Positions 20,699 through 25,993 are shown, numbered from the stretch's first letter. The stretch is 64,000 bases of DNA from an uncultured Gammaproteobacteria bacterium (GCA_964474445.1 CAYYSJ010000002.1:183774-247773); one strand, 5' to 3'. Program-made: numbers and translations. Notes: generated by a model not told the origin, from the sequence alone.

Positions 20699-20715
20699 AG
20701 TCTTGCCGGCAGACT
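20699..20715. terminator. short palindrome between convergent kbl and the hypothetical gene at 20714..21379
   Basis: AGTCTTGCCGGCAGACT, an imperfect palindrome overlapping the stop of the minus-strand gene. The predicted stem is weak. Confidence 0.3.
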
Positions 20716-21379
20716 ATAAAAGTGTTTTTATAGGAAAAAGTCCTTTAAGGATTGCAAAGGCTGCATGAACTTCTGTATCTTCTAAAATGATTGAGACTTC
20801 ATTTAGTGTTGATACTATTTCAATAATATTAATTCCTTCCCATGCAAGCGATTTGAGGAAGAAATAATAGACGCCAGGTGTATCAACATTCTCTTTTGGT
20901 AATCGTATTGTTATTGCAGATAAATTATCTTTTTCAGATAAAACGGTTTCATTTTCAAGCGTCTTTTTTACTTGACTGTGCAAATCTTTACTGAAAATAA
21001 TTGCAGTTTCAAAAACTCCTTCAGTAAGTGTAAAGTAGTATTTATTTTCTTCAGAATACAATGCAGAAAGCTCTTGATATTTTTTACGAAGACTTTCTGA
21101 GTTTGTGTAATTAAGTTCAACAAGGTTAGACCTAACGATCATTTCTGGTGTTGTTCGAAATATCGTAAGAGGAACAAATTTTGGTTTCATCTCCTCAGCA
21201 AGTCTTTTGATTGCCATAATAATAGATGCTTCTGACACATCTTTAAAAAGCATTTTATCAAGCTCTGGCTTAATATACCTTGCAAGTGCAGAGTAGTTAA
21301 TAAGCCCCTTACTCATTGCCTCAGTTAGATAGCGAGATCTCTCTACAATTTGTTTGGTTGCTTCAGGTACAGTAATCAT
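20714..21379 (-). CDS. hypothetical protein with ACT-like C-terminal segment
   Basis: 221 aa, no confident family. C-terminal ~70 aa (GVYYFFLKSLAWEGINIIEIVSTLNEVSIILEDTEVHAAFAILKGLF) resembles an ACT/regulatory beta-alpha-beta-beta-alpha-beta unit. Confidence 0.35.
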   Translation of the reverse strand: MITVPEATKQIVERSRYLTEAMSKGLINYSALARYIKPELDKMLFKDVSEASIIMAIKRLAEEMKPKFVPLTIFRTTPEMIVRSNLVELNYTNSESLRKKYQELSALYSEENKYYFTLTEGVFETAIIFSKDLHSQVKKTLENETVLSEKDNLSAITIRLPKENVDTPGVYYFFLKSLAWEGINIIEIVSTLNEVSIILEDTEVHAAFAILKGLFPIKTLL

Positions 21380-21603: not shown

Positions 21604-23715
21604 ATGGAAGATTCAAGTTTGAAAAAAGTCCGTTTAGAAAAAATAGAAAAATTAAAAGAGGTAGGGATTAATCCTTATCCTCATTCTTTTAACAAAACAC
21701 ATACTGTTGCTCAGACTCGAGATAGCGAAGGGAAAGTGGTCTGCACAGCAGGTCGTATGATGTCATATAGAGAACACGGTAATATCGCATTTGCTGATAT
21801 CGTCGATGAAACAGGAAGAATTCAGATATTCTTCCAGAAAAAAATCCTTGGGGAATCATTTAGACGCCTGAAATTACTTGATATAGGGGATTTCGTTGGA
21901 ATTGAAGGAGAAGTCGGTAAGACGGTTGCTGGGGAAATATCTATTATCCCAACAGAATATACTCTCTTAAGTAAGTCTCTCCGTCCTCTTCCTAATGAGT
22001 GGTATGGGTTAAAAGATACAGAAACGCGATACAGACAGCGATATTTGGATCTGATTCTGAATCCAACAGTAAGGGAAAGGTTTAACATTCGCACAAAGGT
22101 GATTAGTGGAGTGCGTGAGTATCTGGATAGCTTAGGTTTCTGGGAAGTAGAGACGCCAGTATTGCAACCCATGTATGGTGGTGCGAATGCAAAACCGTTT
22201 ACCACTCATTTGAATGCGCTAGATCAAATGATGTATTTGAGAATTGCTGTTGAATTGTACATAAAGCGATTAATTGCTGGTGGATATGAAAAAGTTTATG
22301 AAATTGCAAAAGATTTTCGAAATGAAGGGGTAGACCAAACTCATTCTCCAGAATTCACAATGATTGAGTGGTATGAGTCATATGTCGATTATCATACCAT
22401 GATGGATAGGGCAGAAGGACTTCTGAAATTCCTTGCTACCAAAATCTATGGCACGACTGTTCTACAAGTAGAAGACAAAACAATTGATATTGGTAATACG
22501 TGGCCGAGAATAACTATGTCTGATATTCTCAAAGAAAAACTAAGTCTGGATGTCGAAGCTGAAACACATGAGAGCCTATTGAAATTCTTAAAAGAAAAAT
22601 CCCCTGATGCGGAAGTAATTGGCACAGAAACAAAAGGACAGCTCATCTTTATGATTTTTGATCACCTTATTCCAAAAACATTGAAAGAGCCAACATGGAT
22701 TGTTGATTATCCAGCAGATATTAGTCCTTTTGCTCGTCCTCACAGAGAAAAGGAAGGGTGGGTTGAGCGATTTGAAGGATATATTGGTGGAAAGGAAATT
22801 TTTGATGGATGGACAGAAATTACCGATGCAAAAATTCAGAGAAAGGCATGGGAAAAAGATACCGATGCGGCACGCCCTGATAAAGAAGAAGCACAACATG
22901 TTGATGAAGATTATCTTACAGCGATGGAATATGGTATGCCTCCATATGGGGGTATTGGAGTAGGTATTGATAGATTAACTATGCTTTTTACCAACACATG
23001 GGCCATTAAAGAATTAATTCTATTCCCAACACTGAAGAGAGATAAAACTGAAAAAGAAGAAGTAGAAGAGGTACAACAAAAGACTTCCCATGGCGCTACA
23101 AATAATTTGAAACAAGCTGATGTTTCGAGTGTGACATGGACACGAGATGAAGCATATAATCTCTTAACACAGTATATGTCTTCACCTAATCTTATCAAAC
23201 ACTCTCTTGCAGCTGAGGCAGCGATGAGAGGCATTTATAGATACCTCTATGGGGGAAACGGGAATGTGCATGATGAAGAAATCTGGGGAGTGACAGGACT
23301 TTTGCATGATGTAGATTATGAAGTTGCCCAAAAAGAGGAGAAGTTAGAATTTCATGGAAGACTTCTTTTTGATCAAAATCCTCAATTAATCCCTGAACCG
23401 ATTCAACACGCAATTAAAGCGCATAACTATACCAAGACAGGGACAGATCCTGAAACTGACCTTGATTGGGCAATAGCAACAGTTGATCAACTAACTGGCT
23501 TAGTTGTTTCCAGCGCACTTATTCATCCTGATAAAAAATTGGGATCTATTGATAAGGATTTTGTTCTCAAACGTTTTCATACACCGGGTTTCTCAAAAGG
23601 GGTAGATAGGGAAAATATTAAAAATTGTGAGACAAGACTTGGAATAGCACTTCAGGATTTTATTCAGATTACTTTGGAATCCATGCAACAAATTTCAGAT
23701 AAAATGGGTCTCTAG
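21604..23715 (+). CDS. lysS: lysyl-tRNA synthetase (class II) with C-terminal HD-domain phosphohydrolase extension
   Basis: Residues ~1-500 show the class II LysRS anticodon-binding OB fold and catalytic core (FRNEGVDQTHSPEFTMIEWY; GGIGVGIDRLTMLF). Residues ~510-703 carry HD motifs H-x-L-A-A-E-A...GLLHDVDY. Confidence 0.85.
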   Translation: MEDSSLKKVRLEKIEKLKEVGINPYPHSFNKTHTVAQTRDSEGKVVCTAGRMMSYREHGNIAFADIVDETGRIQIFFQKKILGESFRRLKLLDIGDFVGIEGEVGKTVAGEISIIPTEYTLLSKSLRPLPNEWYGLKDTETRYRQRYLDLILNPTVRERFNIRTKVISGVREYLDSLGFWEVETPVLQPMYGGANAKPFTTHLNALDQMMYLRIAVELYIKRLIAGGYEKVYEIAKDFRNEGVDQTHSPEFTMIEWYESYVDYHTMMDRAEGLLKFLATKIYGTTVLQVEDKTIDIGNTWPRITMSDILKEKLSLDVEAETHESLLKFLKEKSPDAEVIGTETKGQLIFMIFDHLIPKTLKEPTWIVDYPADISPFARPHREKEGWVERFEGYIGGKEIFDGWTEITDAKIQRKAWEKDTDAARPDKEEAQHVDEDYLTAMEYGMPPYGGIGVGIDRLTMLFTNTWAIKELILFPTLKRDKTEKEEVEEVQQKTSHGATNNLKQADVSSVTWTRDEAYNLLTQYMSSPNLIKHSLAAEAAMRGIYRYLYGGNGNVHDEEIWGVTGLLHDVDYEVAQKEEKLEFHGRLLFDQNPQLIPEPIQHAIKAHNYTKTGTDPETDLDWAIATVDQLTGLVVSSALIHPDKKLGSIDKDFVLKRFHTPGFSKGVDRENIKNCETRLGIALQDFIQITLESMQQISDKMGL

Positions 23716-23721
23716 TTCCTC

Positions 23722-24336
23722 ATGCAAAAAATTCTTATTGCAACCACCAATAAAGGAAAATTAGGAGAAATTAAAGAATCTCTCTCTGACTTACCAGTAG
23801 ATTTTGTTTCATTGTATGACGTTGGTATAACAGATGAAGTTATTGAAGATGGAAAAACATACGAAGAGAACTCTCAGAAAAAAGCTACTTTTTATGCATC
23901 ACGGTCTGGTTTACCTGCTATATCAGATGATGGAGGTCTTGAGATAGATGCTCTTGGAGGGGCTCCAGGAATTAACAGCAAATTTTTTGGAGGGAAAGAA
24001 GGAAAAGATGAAGATATCATCAAAAAAATGATGGAAGTTTCTCAAACTATTCCTGACGATAAGAGGGATGCAAAGTTTGTTGCAGTATTGTCTTTTGCAT
24101 TGCCTAATGGGAAGGTATGGAGTGAGAGGTCGGAAGTTGTCCTTCAGGTTTCCAAAAAACCACTTTTCAAACATCTTAAAGGATTCCCCTACCGCTCATT
24201 TCTTGTTATTCCTGCAATTGGCAAATACTATCATGAATCAGAATTGACCGAGCAAGAACGCAAGGAGTATAATCACAGATATAAGGCGTTAGTGAAGTTA
24301 AAGAAAATAATACTTACTGAACTGAAACTTCAATAA
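23722..24336 (+). CDS. rdgB: non-canonical purine NTP pyrophosphatase (RdgB/HAM1, ITPase)
   Basis: 204 aa. MQKILIATTNKGKLGEIKE plus the ITPase substrate-binding motifs. Confidence 0.85.
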   Translation: MQKILIATTNKGKLGEIKESLSDLPVDFVSLYDVGITDEVIEDGKTYEENSQKKATFYASRSGLPAISDDGGLEIDALGGAPGINSKFFGGKEGKDEDIIKKMMEVSQTIPDDKRDAKFVAVLSFALPNGKVWSERSEVVLQVSKKPLFKHLKGFPYRSFLVIPAIGKYYHESELTEQERKEYNHRYKALVKLKKIILTELKLQ

Positions 24337-24380: not shown

Positions 24381-25640
24381 ATGATTGATCTTAAATTACT
24401 AAGAGAAACCCCGCAATATTTTAAAGATGCCGCAAAAGCAAAAAATGTACACGTTGATGTCGACCATATCCTAGAAATAGACGCAAGACAAAGGGAATTA
24501 GCGCGAAATGTGCAAATGCTTCGAGAAGAAAGAAATGTGTTGACTTCTGCAATGAAAGGGGGAAAACCGACTCCTGAACAAATAGAAAAAGGAAAAAATC
24601 TCAAAGAAAGGCTTGAAAAAGATGAACATACACTTGCAGCAGTAGATGATGAACTAAAAGCAGAATTATATAAAATTCCAAATCCTGTCAAACCAGATGT
24701 TAAAGTAGGAAAAGATGAGAGTGAAAATGAAGTGATCAAGACTGTGGGGAATCCACGAAAGTTTGATTTCCCAGTGAAGGATCATCTGGAGCTTGGAGAG
24801 AAATTAAACATTATTGATACACAGACGGCTGCAGAGATAAGTGGTGCACGGTTTAATTATTTGAAAAATGAGGGTGCACTGTTAGAATTTGCACTCAAGC
24901 AGCTTGCTTTTGAAGTACTTCTTAAAGAAGGATTTACCCCAATTCTTCCTCCTGTTTTAGTAAGAAAACAAATTATGGATGATTTAGGCTATACGGCAAT
25001 GGGAGAAGAAGAAAATATCTATGCAATTGCACAAGATGATTTGTATTTAATAGGTACTTCTGAACAGTCTATTGTACCGATGTTGAAAGATAAAGTTGTT
25101 GATAAATCAGAATTGCCGAAGCGTTTTGTTGGATTTTCGACATGTTTTAGAAGAGAAGCAGGAAGTTATGGAAAAGATACCAAGGGAATTTTTCGAGTTC
25201 ACCAATTTGATAAAGTAGAAATGGTGAGTTTTGTTGAACAAGGAAAAGATGATGAGGAACACGAATATTTGCTCTCTCTTGAAGAAAAATTCTTTCAACT
25301 TTTAGAGATTCCATATCAGGTTATTCGAATTTGCAGTGGTGATTTAGGATTTAATGCTGCAAGAAAATACGATATTGAAGCATGGATTCCATCACAAGAA
25401 AAGTATCGAGAAGTTACTTCAACATCGACTGTTACTGATTTCCAATCACGAAGACTTAATATGAAGTATCAAGATGGTGATGAGAAGAAATATTTACAGG
25501 TACTTAATGGCACAGCATACTCAATGAATCGTCCAATTATTGCTATTCTAGAAAATTATCAACAAGAGGATGGAAGTGTTGTTATTCCTGAAGTACTAAG
25601 AAAATATATTGGAAAAGACACAATTACTCCCAAAAAGTAA
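24381..25640 (+). CDS. serS: seryl-tRNA synthetase
   Basis: 419 aa with an N-terminal coiled-coil arm and class II motifs (GFSTCFRREAGSYGKDTKGIFRVHQF; NGTAYSMNRPIIAILENYQ). Confidence 0.9.
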   Translation: MIDLKLLRETPQYFKDAAKAKNVHVDVDHILEIDARQRELARNVQMLREERNVLTSAMKGGKPTPEQIEKGKNLKERLEKDEHTLAAVDDELKAELYKIPNPVKPDVKVGKDESENEVIKTVGNPRKFDFPVKDHLELGEKLNIIDTQTAAEISGARFNYLKNEGALLEFALKQLAFEVLLKEGFTPILPPVLVRKQIMDDLGYTAMGEEENIYAIAQDDLYLIGTSEQSIVPMLKDKVVDKSELPKRFVGFSTCFRREAGSYGKDTKGIFRVHQFDKVEMVSFVEQGKDDEEHEYLLSLEEKFFQLLEIPYQVIRICSGDLGFNAARKYDIEAWIPSQEKYREVTSTSTVTDFQSRRLNMKYQDGDEKKYLQVLNGTAYSMNRPIIAILENYQQEDGSVVIPEVLRKYIGKDTITPKK

Positions 25641-25900
25641 TCTTCTCACTACATTTTCATTTATAATTTTTCATTTCCACTGCTATTACTCATTCAAAAA
25701 ATTATTCTATTTTCTGAGTAAAAATTGAAAATTATGCTATGAAATAGGCATCGTAATTTTTATTGGTTTATCAATCTAATCAGTCATTTTTGAAGCAAGT
25801 GAAAAATATTGACAAAATACCCAAAAAGATTAACGATAAATATATCATACCTGCCCAAGATAGAAAAATGCTTGGAGGAAACAAAAAGGAGGTGATTTCC

Positions 25901-25993
25901 ATGCCAGTAAAGAAGAAAACAGCACACAAGAAAACAACAACAAAGAAAGCAACATCAAAGAAGACAAAGACAAAAGCAAAAAAAAGAAAATAA
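25901..25993 (+). CDS. tiny lysine/threonine-rich basic protein (30 aa), paralog-like to the one at 9278
   Basis: ATG at 25901 is preceded by AAAAAGGAGGTGAT, the same SD as at 9261. Product MPVKKKTAHKKTTTKKATSKKTKTKAKKRK. A strong terminator lies 45 nt downstream. The track ORF from 25763 has no SD and odd composition. Confidence 0.4.
   Translation: MPVKKKTAHKKTTTKKATSKKTKTKAKKRK

What the first reader, a model, noticed from the sequence alone, without database searches (positions are those of the whole stretch)
21604..23715. Lysyl-tRNA synthetase with a C-terminal HD phosphohydrolase domain
The ORF is ~200 aa longer than typical bacterial LysRS. The extension carries H...A...LLHDVDY HD-superfamily motifs. 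LysRS is the main cellular source of Ap4A, and HD-domain YqeK-type enzymes hydrolyse Ap4A. A covalent fusion could couple synthesis and clearance of this alarmone, or provide another nucleotide-hydrolysing activity at the synthetase. No frameshift or stop separates the two parts, so it is not two adjacent genes.
Basis: partly seen in the sequence, partly recalled or inferred. Interest (0 to 1): 0.5.

Follow-up and report, generated by a model that had tools for sequence, protein, structure and literature searches.

The report
LysRS fused to intact HD hydrolase
This gene really does encode a lysyl-tRNA synthetase with a complete, apparently active HD-type metal hydrolase tethered to its end; the design is widespread in the tiny-genome CPR bacteria, has not been described in any paper I could find, and the hydrolase's substrate (perhaps the by-product Ap4A) remains untested.

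Summary
ORF 21604-23715 (+) encodes 703 aa: a complete class II LysRS (res 6-480), a disordered linker of about 30 residues, and a 192-aa HD-fold domain (res 512-703).

It is not an assembly artefact. The identical protein occurs in two independent read-set assemblies. Among the 120 closest LysRS clusters, 71 are LysRS-HD and 6 more add a third module. About 25 further clusters at the 50% identity level share the architecture at 33-44% identity.

The HD part belongs to a large uncharacterised family of free-standing proteins of about 190 aa, found in CPR, Firmicutes, archaea and other phyla. All six dimetal-type ligands (H533, H568-D569, H584, H607, D628) are invariant in 78 fused and 199 free copies.

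In CPR the same LysRS terminus alternatively carries B3_4 (an aa-tRNA deacylase fold) or DUF2000, alone or together with HD. Class I LysRS-B3_4 genes are followed by a free HD gene.

Best guess: the domain clears an adenylate-derived nucleotide by-product such as Ap4A. This is plausible but unproven (about 0.4).

The parts
21604..23715 (+). Whole fusion gene lysS-HD (703 aa plus stop)
   Evidence: Single ORF. The identical protein occurs in two independent assemblies. 71 of the 120 closest LysRS clusters are LysRS-HD and 6 more add a third module.
21739..21969 (+). LysRS N-terminal OB-fold anticodon-binding domain (res 46-122)
   Evidence: PF01336, 54.6 bits.
22018..23034 (+). Class II aaRS catalytic core (res 139-477)
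   Evidence: PF00152, 281.6 bits. The whole LysRS part passes NF001756 and TIGR00499 above their cutoffs.
23044..23136 (+). Flexible charged linker (res 481-511), variable in length and sequence between orthologues
   Evidence: pLDDT about 30 over residues 468-500 and pTM 0.56 for the full-length model. There is no consensus across these columns in alignment A2. P0001 has a different linker.
23137..23712 (+). HD-fold phosphohydrolase domain (res 512-703), equivalent to a complete free-standing protein of about 192 aa
23200..23487 (+). Predicted metal-ligand set H533, H568-D569 (nt 23305-23310), D571, H584, H607, D628
   Evidence: Invariant in 78 fused and 199 free family members. The pattern H..HD..H..H..D is that of dimetal HD enzymes (established knowledge).
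23722..24336 (+). Downstream operon partner: Ham1/RdgB-like non-canonical NTP pyrophosphatase, starting 6 nt after the fusion gene's stop
   Evidence: PF01725, 127 bits. The synteny lysS-ham1-serS-secA is conserved in L001, L088, L089 and L091.
24381..25640 (+). serS (seryl-tRNA synthetase), conserved neighbour
   Evidence: ORF. SerRS follows the HD gene in 8 GTDB loci. L001 and L091 show the same order.

Best explanation
Anatomy (shown, confidence above 0.9). This is the housekeeping class II lysyl-tRNA synthetase of a CPR/Patescibacteria bacterium. A complete HD-superfamily hydrolase is tethered to its C-terminus by a disordered linker of about 30 residues. The HD module comes from a family of free-standing enzymes of about 190 aa. 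In related CPR genomes that family is encoded as a separate gene 8-9 nt after lysS, so loss of the lysS stop codon created the fusion. Fusion and fission have happened several times.

Mechanism (inferred, about 0.4). The HD domain is a dimetal phosphodiesterase or pyrophosphatase held next to the synthetase. There it destroys a nucleotide by-product of aminoacyl-adenylate chemistry, most likely Ap4A or related ApnN, or possibly non-cognate aminoacyl-adenylate. In a tiny cell, synthesis and clearance would then occur on one polypeptide. It works like YqeK or ApaH but is not a member of either family.
For: LysRS is complete and sits at the syntenic lysS-ham1-serS-secA locus, where relatives have a plain LysRS.

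The fusion recurs: 71 LysRS-HD among the top 120 clusters at 90% identity, and 23 LysRS-HD plus 5 other HD-bearing architectures among the top 150 clusters at 50% identity, including one with HD at the N-terminus.

Unfused lysS|HD pairs are separated by 8-9 nt in L071 and L010. The NJ tree needs at least 7 fused/free switches.

H533, H568, D569, D571, H584, H607 and D628 are invariant in all 277 fused and free copies, so the domain is under catalytic constraint.

The domain is acidic (net charge -9, pI 5.3; family median -5), which is unlike an RNA binder.

The linker is disordered and the domains do not dock (pTM 0.56).

An aaRS gene (thrS 23, serS 8, glyQS 3) lies within three genes downstream of the free HD gene in 34 of 77 loci, and lysS lies directly upstream in 7 of those. 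aaRSs, LysRS especially, are the main Ap4A/ApnN producers, and YqeK is an HD-type Ap4A hydrolase (PMC7705103).

The next gene is another nucleotide house-cleaning enzyme, Ham1.
Against: No substrate was or could be tested.

The family is not YqeK. Firmicutes that carry this family normally also have YqeK (my own knowledge, not checked here), which would make an identical role redundant there.

The sister add-ons at the same position (B3_4, DUF2000) point to aminoacyl-tRNA rather than nucleotides.

The free HD gene also follows class I LysRS. To my knowledge that enzyme needs tRNA to activate lysine and is not a known Ap4A source.

The aaRS neighbourhood may be partly inherited synteny in gene-dense CPR genomes. 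Outside CPR the neighbours are heterogeneous.
Confidence: 0.4

Rival explanations
1. tRNA-end healing enzyme. The HD domain is a 2',3'-cyclic phosphodiesterase or 3'-phosphatase, like the HD domain of bacterial CCA-adding enzymes. It restores a chargeable 3' end on damaged tRNA(Lys), or on tRNAs in general, next to the synthetase that will use it.
Confidence: 0.2
2. Component of a LysRS proofreading toolkit. Together with, or instead of, B3_4 and DUF2000, the HD module removes products of mis-activation (non-cognate aminoacyl-AMP, or mischarged tRNA(Lys)). This would give CPR LysRS an editing function that canonical LysRS lacks.
For: At the same syntenic locus the LysRS C-terminus carries nothing, HD, B3_4 or DUF2000. 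B3_4 is the PheRS-beta editing fold, and a free B3/4 protein (CtdA, 9f7e) is a canavanyl-tRNA deacylase. HD combines with either module in one chain: LysRS-B3_4-HD, LysRS-HD-DUF2000 and LysRS-DUF2000-HD. An acylphosphatase gene lies next to the free HD in L059, with a 91-aa ORF at the same position in L081, and a DTD gene lies next to it in L070.
Against: HD enzymes are not known to hydrolyse carboxyl esters such as aminoacyl-tRNA (established knowledge). HD co-occurs with B3_4 or DUF2000 rather than simply replacing them, which suggests a different task. The free family is also present in organisms with ordinary LysRS.
Confidence: 0.15
3. Second-messenger or alarmone hydrolase (c-di-AMP, c-di-GMP, pApA, (p)ppGpp or (p)ppApp) whose fusion to LysRS only ensures co-expression with translation genes, with no chemical link to LysRS.
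Against: There is no GYP motif in the sequence (read directly from the translation) and no 7TM or sensor domains. Independent fusions to LysRS at both termini, plus tight lysS|HD gene pairs, argue for a specific functional tie.
Confidence: 0.15
4. Non-catalytic appendage: a tRNA-binding or regulatory domain, as in GlyRS-beta.
Against: All metal ligands are invariant in 277 sequences, fused or free, whereas E. coli GlyRS-beta has S-K in place of H-D. The domain is acidic.
Confidence: 0.05
5. Assembly, indel or gene-calling artefact joining two adjacent genes.
For: Some relatives do have separate lysS and HD genes only 8-9 nt apart.
Against: The identical ORF occurs in two independent read sets. 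Dozens of diverged orthologues have in-frame linkers of different length and sequence. A second MAG has the same fusion and the same synteny.
Confidence: 0.01

Closest known systems
YqeK (COG1713) symmetrical Ap4A hydrolase of Gram-positive bacteria
   Different: There is no sequence-level relationship: 0 of 25 members hit TIGR00488, and the family profile finds no YqeK chain in the PDB. YqeK is not the nearest structure. YqeK is not fused to an aaRS, and I saw no nadD-type gene beside the HD gene among the frequent neighbours.
HD domain of the beta-subunit of bacterial-type (alpha-beta)2 GlyRS
   Different: The GlyRS-beta HD has lost the catalytic His-Asp (Ser393-Lys394 in E. coli) and bound none of the nucleotides tested. 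The domain here keeps every ligand. CPR lack bacterial-type GlyRS (bioRxiv 10.1101/2023.05.29.542759), so this HD was not borrowed from it.
HD-GYP and PgpH cyclic-dinucleotide phosphodiesterases
   Different: There is no GYP motif and no 7TM or sensor domain. The HDIG model scores below its cutoff (16 bits against 27.6).
LysX (MprF-LysRS fusion of mycobacteria)
   Same: A class II LysRS covalently joined to an enzyme domain that consumes a LysRS product, which is a precedent for channelling.
   Different: The partner domain is different (lysyl-phosphatidylglycerol synthase, N-terminal, membrane-bound). The LysX model scores 496 bits against a cutoff of 742.
Appended or free aa-tRNA editing modules (PheRS-beta B3/B4, CtdA canavanyl-tRNA deacylase)
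   Same: Sister CPR LysRS proteins carry a B3_4 domain at exactly the position the HD occupies here.
   Different: B3_4 is a different fold with different chemistry. The window protein has no B3_4 domain.

Membership tests
Class II lysyl-tRNA synthetase (lysS, TIGR00499 / NF001756) | Full-length match above the curated equivalog cutoff, with the OB anticodon-binding domain plus the class II core | tested here: met
   TIGR00499 524 bits (cutoff 427.6); NF001756 589 bits (cutoff 468); PF01336 and PF00152 present.
HD superfamily (PF01966) | Pfam HD model at or above the gathering score | tested here: inconclusive
   The window sequence scores 17.2-20.2 bits against a cutoff of 22. However, 18 of 25 family members match at E<=0.1, with best E 6e-6.
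HD superfamily (PF01966) | All-helical HD fold | tested here: met
HD superfamily (PF01966) | Conserved H...HD...D metal ligands | tested here: met
   H533, H568-D569 and D628, plus H584 and H607, are invariant in 277 sequences.
YqeK / COG1713 Ap4A hydrolase | Match to the family model (TIGR00488), or detectable sequence homology to solved YqeK proteins | tested here: not met
   0 of 25 members hit TIGR00488 at E<=10. The family profile against the PDB at E<=10 finds no YqeK chain.
YqeK / COG1713 Ap4A hydrolase | YqeK is the nearest structural neighbour | tested here: not met
YqeK / COG1713 Ap4A hydrolase | Symmetrical hydrolysis of Ap4A to 2 ADP | not testable with these tools
   This needs an enzyme assay.
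GlyRS-beta HD domain | Embedded in the GlyRS beta-subunit, with the catalytic His-Asp replaced | tested here: not met
   The domain is fused to LysRS and the HD doublet and all other ligands are retained, in contrast to the E. coli S393-K394 replacement.
HD-GYP phosphodiesterase | HD domain with the C-terminal GYP motif | tested here: not met
LysX (bifunctional LysPG synthase / LysRS) | MprF-like domain plus LysRS, with NF002821 at or above its cutoff | tested here: not met
   496 bits against a cutoff of 742, and only the LysRS part (model positions 622-1100) aligns.

The most novel reading that the evidence does not exclude
CPR bacteria equip lysyl-tRNA synthetase, whichever of the two unrelated classes they use, with an interchangeable set of catalytic accessory modules: the HD hydrolase, a B3_4 deacylase fold and DUF2000. 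These may be fused at either end or encoded immediately downstream. This would be a lineage-wide and so far undescribed quality-control layer around lysine activation. It would contain the first dedicated post-transfer editing domains for LysRS, plus a built-in dimetal HD enzyme that destroys Ap4A or adenylate by-products on the very enzyme that makes them.
Probability: 0.3. Interest if true: 0.8.

Novelty: new variant of a known kind. Interest (0 to 1): 0.6.

Why it matters
Aminoacyl-tRNA synthetases with appended domains are well known. An aaRS carrying a catalytically intact HD metallohydrolase is not: the only described aaRS HD domain, in GlyRS-beta, is degenerate.

If the HD clears Ap4A or ApnN, this would be the first natural enzyme that joins synthesis and destruction of that alarmone on one polypeptide. 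It would also define a third bacterial Ap4A-hydrolase family alongside ApaH and YqeK, and give a function to a widespread orphan HD family present in bacteria and archaea.

If it instead acts on tRNA or on mis-activated products, it would reveal a proofreading or repair step for LysRS, an enzyme thought to lack post-transfer editing.

In either case, the HD/B3_4/DUF2000 module swapping on both LysRS classes gives a concrete, testable entry point into how organisms with minimal genomes police translation.

Tried and rejected
- **Artefact hypothesis:** rejected.
- **PDB sequence searches:** the extension alone and a 25-sequence profile found no related solved structure.
- **NCBIfam scan of the family:** only the generic HDIG model matched, below its cutoff. 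No characterised family matched.
- **AFDB50 fold search:** the library was unavailable.
- **Full-length AF2 model, to see whether HD docks on LysRS:** no confident inter-domain packing (pTM 0.56). The tool gives no coordinates or PAE, and LysRS was modelled as a monomer.
- **Literature:** searches for the LysRS-HD fusion, COG2316, DUF2000, and aaRS architectures in Patescibacteria found no description. The AARS Online paper lists no such domain.
- **Second HD-family copy or YqeK-like ORF in the window:** none found, but 64 kb cannot speak for the whole genome.
- **Riboswitch, T-box or tRNA near lysS:** none. Promoter and terminator scans were at chance level.
- **aaRS linkage outside CPR:** only partly present, with heterogeneous neighbours.
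- I used residue numbers 2 too high. This was corrected.

Full report
**Observation.** The window holds one uninterrupted ORF at 21604-23715 (+), 703 aa. Residues 6-480 are a complete bacterial class II lysyl-tRNA synthetase. NF001756 scores 589 bits (cutoff 468) and TIGR00499 scores 524 bits (cutoff 427.6). The OB anticodon-binding domain lies at 46-122 and the class II core at 139-477. Plain LysRS proteins from close relatives are 481-500 aa, so about 220 extra residues follow the synthetase.

**Is it catalytic?** I aligned 78 fused and 199 free copies. H533, H568, D569, D571, H584, H607, D628 and G632 are invariant, and K532, E538, N608, R669 and C675 are nearly so. The pattern H..HD..H..H..D is the six-ligand signature of dimetal HD enzymes such as YqeK, PgpH and HD-GYP (established knowledge). 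The HD domain of E. coli GlyRS-beta, by contrast, has Ser-Lys in place of His-Asp and bound none of the nucleotides tested (PMC8464048). The fused copies are thus under the same constraint as the free enzymes, so this is an enzyme and not a degenerate binding module. The domain is also acidic: net charge -9 and pI 5.3, with a family median of -5 and only 4% of members above pI 8. That is untypical of an RNA-binding appendage.

**Is the fusion real?**
- The identical 703-aa protein was assembled independently from SRR12266074 and SRR31070047.
- A different MAG (GCA_035715145.1) has the same fusion, with a different linker and the same downstream genes, ham1-serS-secA.
- Among the 120 closest LysRS clusters, 71 are LysRS-HD, with 52-88% identity over the full length.
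- Among the 150 best clusters at the 50% identity level, 23 are LysRS-HD, aligning end to end at 33-44% identity.
- A full-length model has pTM 0.56 with pLDDT about 30 across residues 468-500. The HD is therefore tethered by a disordered linker whose length and sequence vary between orthologues, and it is not docked.

**Origin.** In 80 loci from GTDB species the HD gene is free-standing. In L071 (Daviesbacteria) lysS ends in TAG and the HD gene's ATG follows about 9 nt later in the same frame. In L010 (Levyibacteriota) the gap is 8 nt. Free proteins start MTRDEAY, and the window protein reads WTRDEAY at the corresponding place. Fusion by loss of the lysS stop codon is the obvious route. An NJ tree of HD domains needs at least 7 fused/free switches and shows two large fused clades. 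One cluster (P0280, seen on two contigs) has the HD at the N-terminus of LysRS. Repeated, independent fusion is classic evidence for a functional link.

The same CPR LysRS C-terminus carries several alternative modules:

| Architecture | Top 120 clusters, 90% identity | Top 150 clusters, 50% identity |
|---|---|---|
| LysRS-HD | 71 | 23 |
| Plain LysRS | 19 | 79 |
| LysRS-B3_4 | 15 | 8 |
| LysRS-DUF2000 | 9 | 11 |
| LysRS-B3_4-HD | 3 | 2 |
| LysRS-HD-DUF2000 | 2 | 0 |
| LysRS-DUF2000-HD | 1 | 1 |
| HD-LysRS (N-terminal HD) | 0 | 1 |
| B3_4-LysRS (N-terminal B3_4) | 0 | 3 |

The remaining clusters carry other, unexplained extensions. One cluster (P0252) was tabulated there as 'LysRS-HD-HD' because of a spurious HD match scoring -1.2, so it is probably a 24th LysRS-HD. 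Domain positions were confirmed by Pfam.

At the syntenic locus lysS-ham1-serS-secA, close relatives have plain LysRS (L091), LysRS-DUF2000 (L089), LysRS-B3_4 (L088) or LysRS-HD (this window and L001). The MAG with the plain LysRS has a free HD gene on another contig (L025).

B3_4 is the PheRS-beta editing fold, and a free B3/4 protein (CtdA, 9f7e) is a canavanyl-tRNA deacylase. DUF2000 matches only the uncharacterised Atu0240 (2gax).

In L009 the gene directly upstream of the free HD is a class I LysRS (PF01921, 320 bits) carrying a C-terminal B3_4 domain (84 bits). L051, L069 and L077 have homologues in the same blastp cluster at the same position. Two evolutionarily unrelated LysRS enzymes are therefore tied to the same accessory modules.

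**Neighbours of the free HD gene.**
- thrS-infC-rplT follows within three genes in 23 of 77 loci.
- serS follows within three genes in 8 loci. Seven of these have lysS directly upstream (class II in L010, L041 and L071; class I in L009, L051, L069 and L077).
- glyQ-glyS follows in 3 non-CPR loci.
- In Firmicutes, rnr and smpB follow.
- Elsewhere the neighbours are heterogeneous, with occasional quality-control genes such as dtd and an acylphosphatase.
- Much of the CPR signal may be inherited synteny, so I treat it as supportive only.

**Is it YqeK-type?** No. None of 25 members hits the YqeK model TIGR00488 even at E<=10. The family profile finds no YqeK chain in the PDB. YqeK is not the nearest structure. 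I saw no nadD-like gene among the frequent neighbours. The domain may still work like YqeK, but it cannot be filed as a member of that family.

**Mechanism.**

*Shown:* a complete LysRS, a flexible tether, a complete HD enzyme with an invariant dimetal-type site, and recurrent fusion and operon linkage to LysRS.

*Inferred (about 0.4):* the HD hydrolyses a nucleotide by-product of adenylate chemistry, most plausibly Ap4A or ApnN. aaRSs, and LysRS in particular, are the main producers, and an HD enzyme (YqeK) is one of the known bacterial hydrolases (PMC7705103). The closest active structural relatives all cut phosphate-bridged dinucleotides. The domain is acidic. It sits in an operon with another nucleotide-sanitising enzyme, Ham1.

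*Rivals:*
- A tRNA 3'-end healing phosphoesterase (about 0.2). It is favoured by the GlyRS-beta resemblance and the class I/II LysRS link.
- An adenylate or aa-tRNA proofreading role within the B3_4/DUF2000 toolkit (about 0.15).
- A second-messenger or alarmone hydrolase fused only for co-expression (about 0.15).
- A non-catalytic appendage (about 0.05).
- An artefact (about 0.01).

**Novelty.** Databases hold many of these proteins under the bare name 'lysine--tRNA ligase'. I found no paper that describes the fusion, the HD family or the module set. It is a new variant of a known kind, namely aaRSs with appended domains. The HD family itself is an uncharacterised branch of a known superfamily.

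**Limits.** Only 64 kb of the genome is visible, so the absence of YqeK, ApaH or Nudix hydrolases could not be checked. No coordinates or PAE were available. LysRS was modelled as a monomer. Record titles are often unreliable (see the passing notes). The window's organism is CPR/Patescibacteria by its closest relatives, but I could not place it more finely.

Noticed in passing
L009:2213-4480 (+); homologous genes at the same position in L051, L069 and L077: Class I LysRS (PF01921, 320 bits) with a C-terminal B3_4 domain (PF03483, 84 bits), 755 aa, lies directly upstream of a free HD-family gene and serS. Both unrelated LysRS classes therefore carry the same add-on in CPR. Only the L009 protein was scanned against Pfam; the other three belong to the same blastp cluster.
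   Followed up: partly
P0153, P0205 (L089:4001-5923), P0210 (L088:4001-6172), P0122, P0178, P0203: Sister architectures LysRS-DUF2000, LysRS-B3_4, LysRS-HD-DUF2000 and LysRS-B3_4-HD occur at the same syntenic locus. B3_4 resembles the PheRS-beta editing domain and the CtdA canavanyl-tRNA deacylase. DUF2000 resembles only Atu0240 (2gax).
   Followed up: partly
L010:3023-5986: Two tandem class II lysS copies (42% and 47% identical to the window LysRS) precede the free HD gene in a Levyibacteriota MAG.
   Followed up: no
L089:1-3957: Lysine (DAP pathway) biosynthesis genes, namely aspartokinase, dapB, dapA and asd, lie directly upstream of lysS-DUF2000. Lysine synthesis and charging appear to sit in one cluster.
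   Followed up: no
window 23131-23160 (+): An 11/12 sigma-70-like match (GTGACA-18 nt-TATAAT) lies exactly at the LysRS/HD junction. The overall count of such sites is at chance level (17 found, 15.6 expected), so this is probably fortuitous. An internal transcript for a separate HD product was not excluded.
   Followed up: no
window 23722-24336 (+): A Ham1/RdgB-like NTP pyrophosphatase starts 6 nt after the fusion gene. It follows lysS in every close relative examined, whichever module LysRS carries.
   Followed up: partly
L093 (P0285, GCA_048939065.1): A LysRS-B3_4-HD protein is labelled Promethearchaeota. It sits on a 9-kb contig beside an IPPT (tRNA isopentenyltransferase family) gene, which I take to be bacterial-type. 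It is probably a mis-binned bacterial contig rather than an Asgard gene.
   Followed up: no
L008, L014-L017, L019, L021, L023 and others: Many GTDB records titled 'uncultured Gammaproteobacteria bacterium' carry CPR-type gene content (DUF5660, HD-thrS-infC-rplT). Their titles look unreliable.
   Followed up: no
P0241-P0390: About 20 LysRS representatives have other, unexplained N- or C-terminal extensions of 90-645 aa that are not HD, B3_4 or DUF2000.
   Followed up: no
L059:5711-5986, L081:5709-5984, L070:6564-7001: In L059 (Aminicenantes) an acylphosphatase gene lies directly upstream of the free HD gene. L081 has a 91-aa ORF at the same position that I did not scan. In L070 a D-Tyr-tRNA deacylase gene lies directly downstream. 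In Firmicutes loci smpB and rnr follow the HD gene.
   Followed up: partly
window 25763-25993 (+): A small, extremely basic ORF (76 aa, with a KKTAHKKTTTKKATSKKTKTKAKKRK tail) lies between serS and secA. I did not examine whether it is a real gene.
   Followed up: no
window 20714-21379 (-): The divergent upstream gene (221 aa) has no family assignment beyond a sub-threshold DUF7523 hit (20.8 bits against a cutoff of 27). It is conserved next to the fusion in L007.
   Followed up: no
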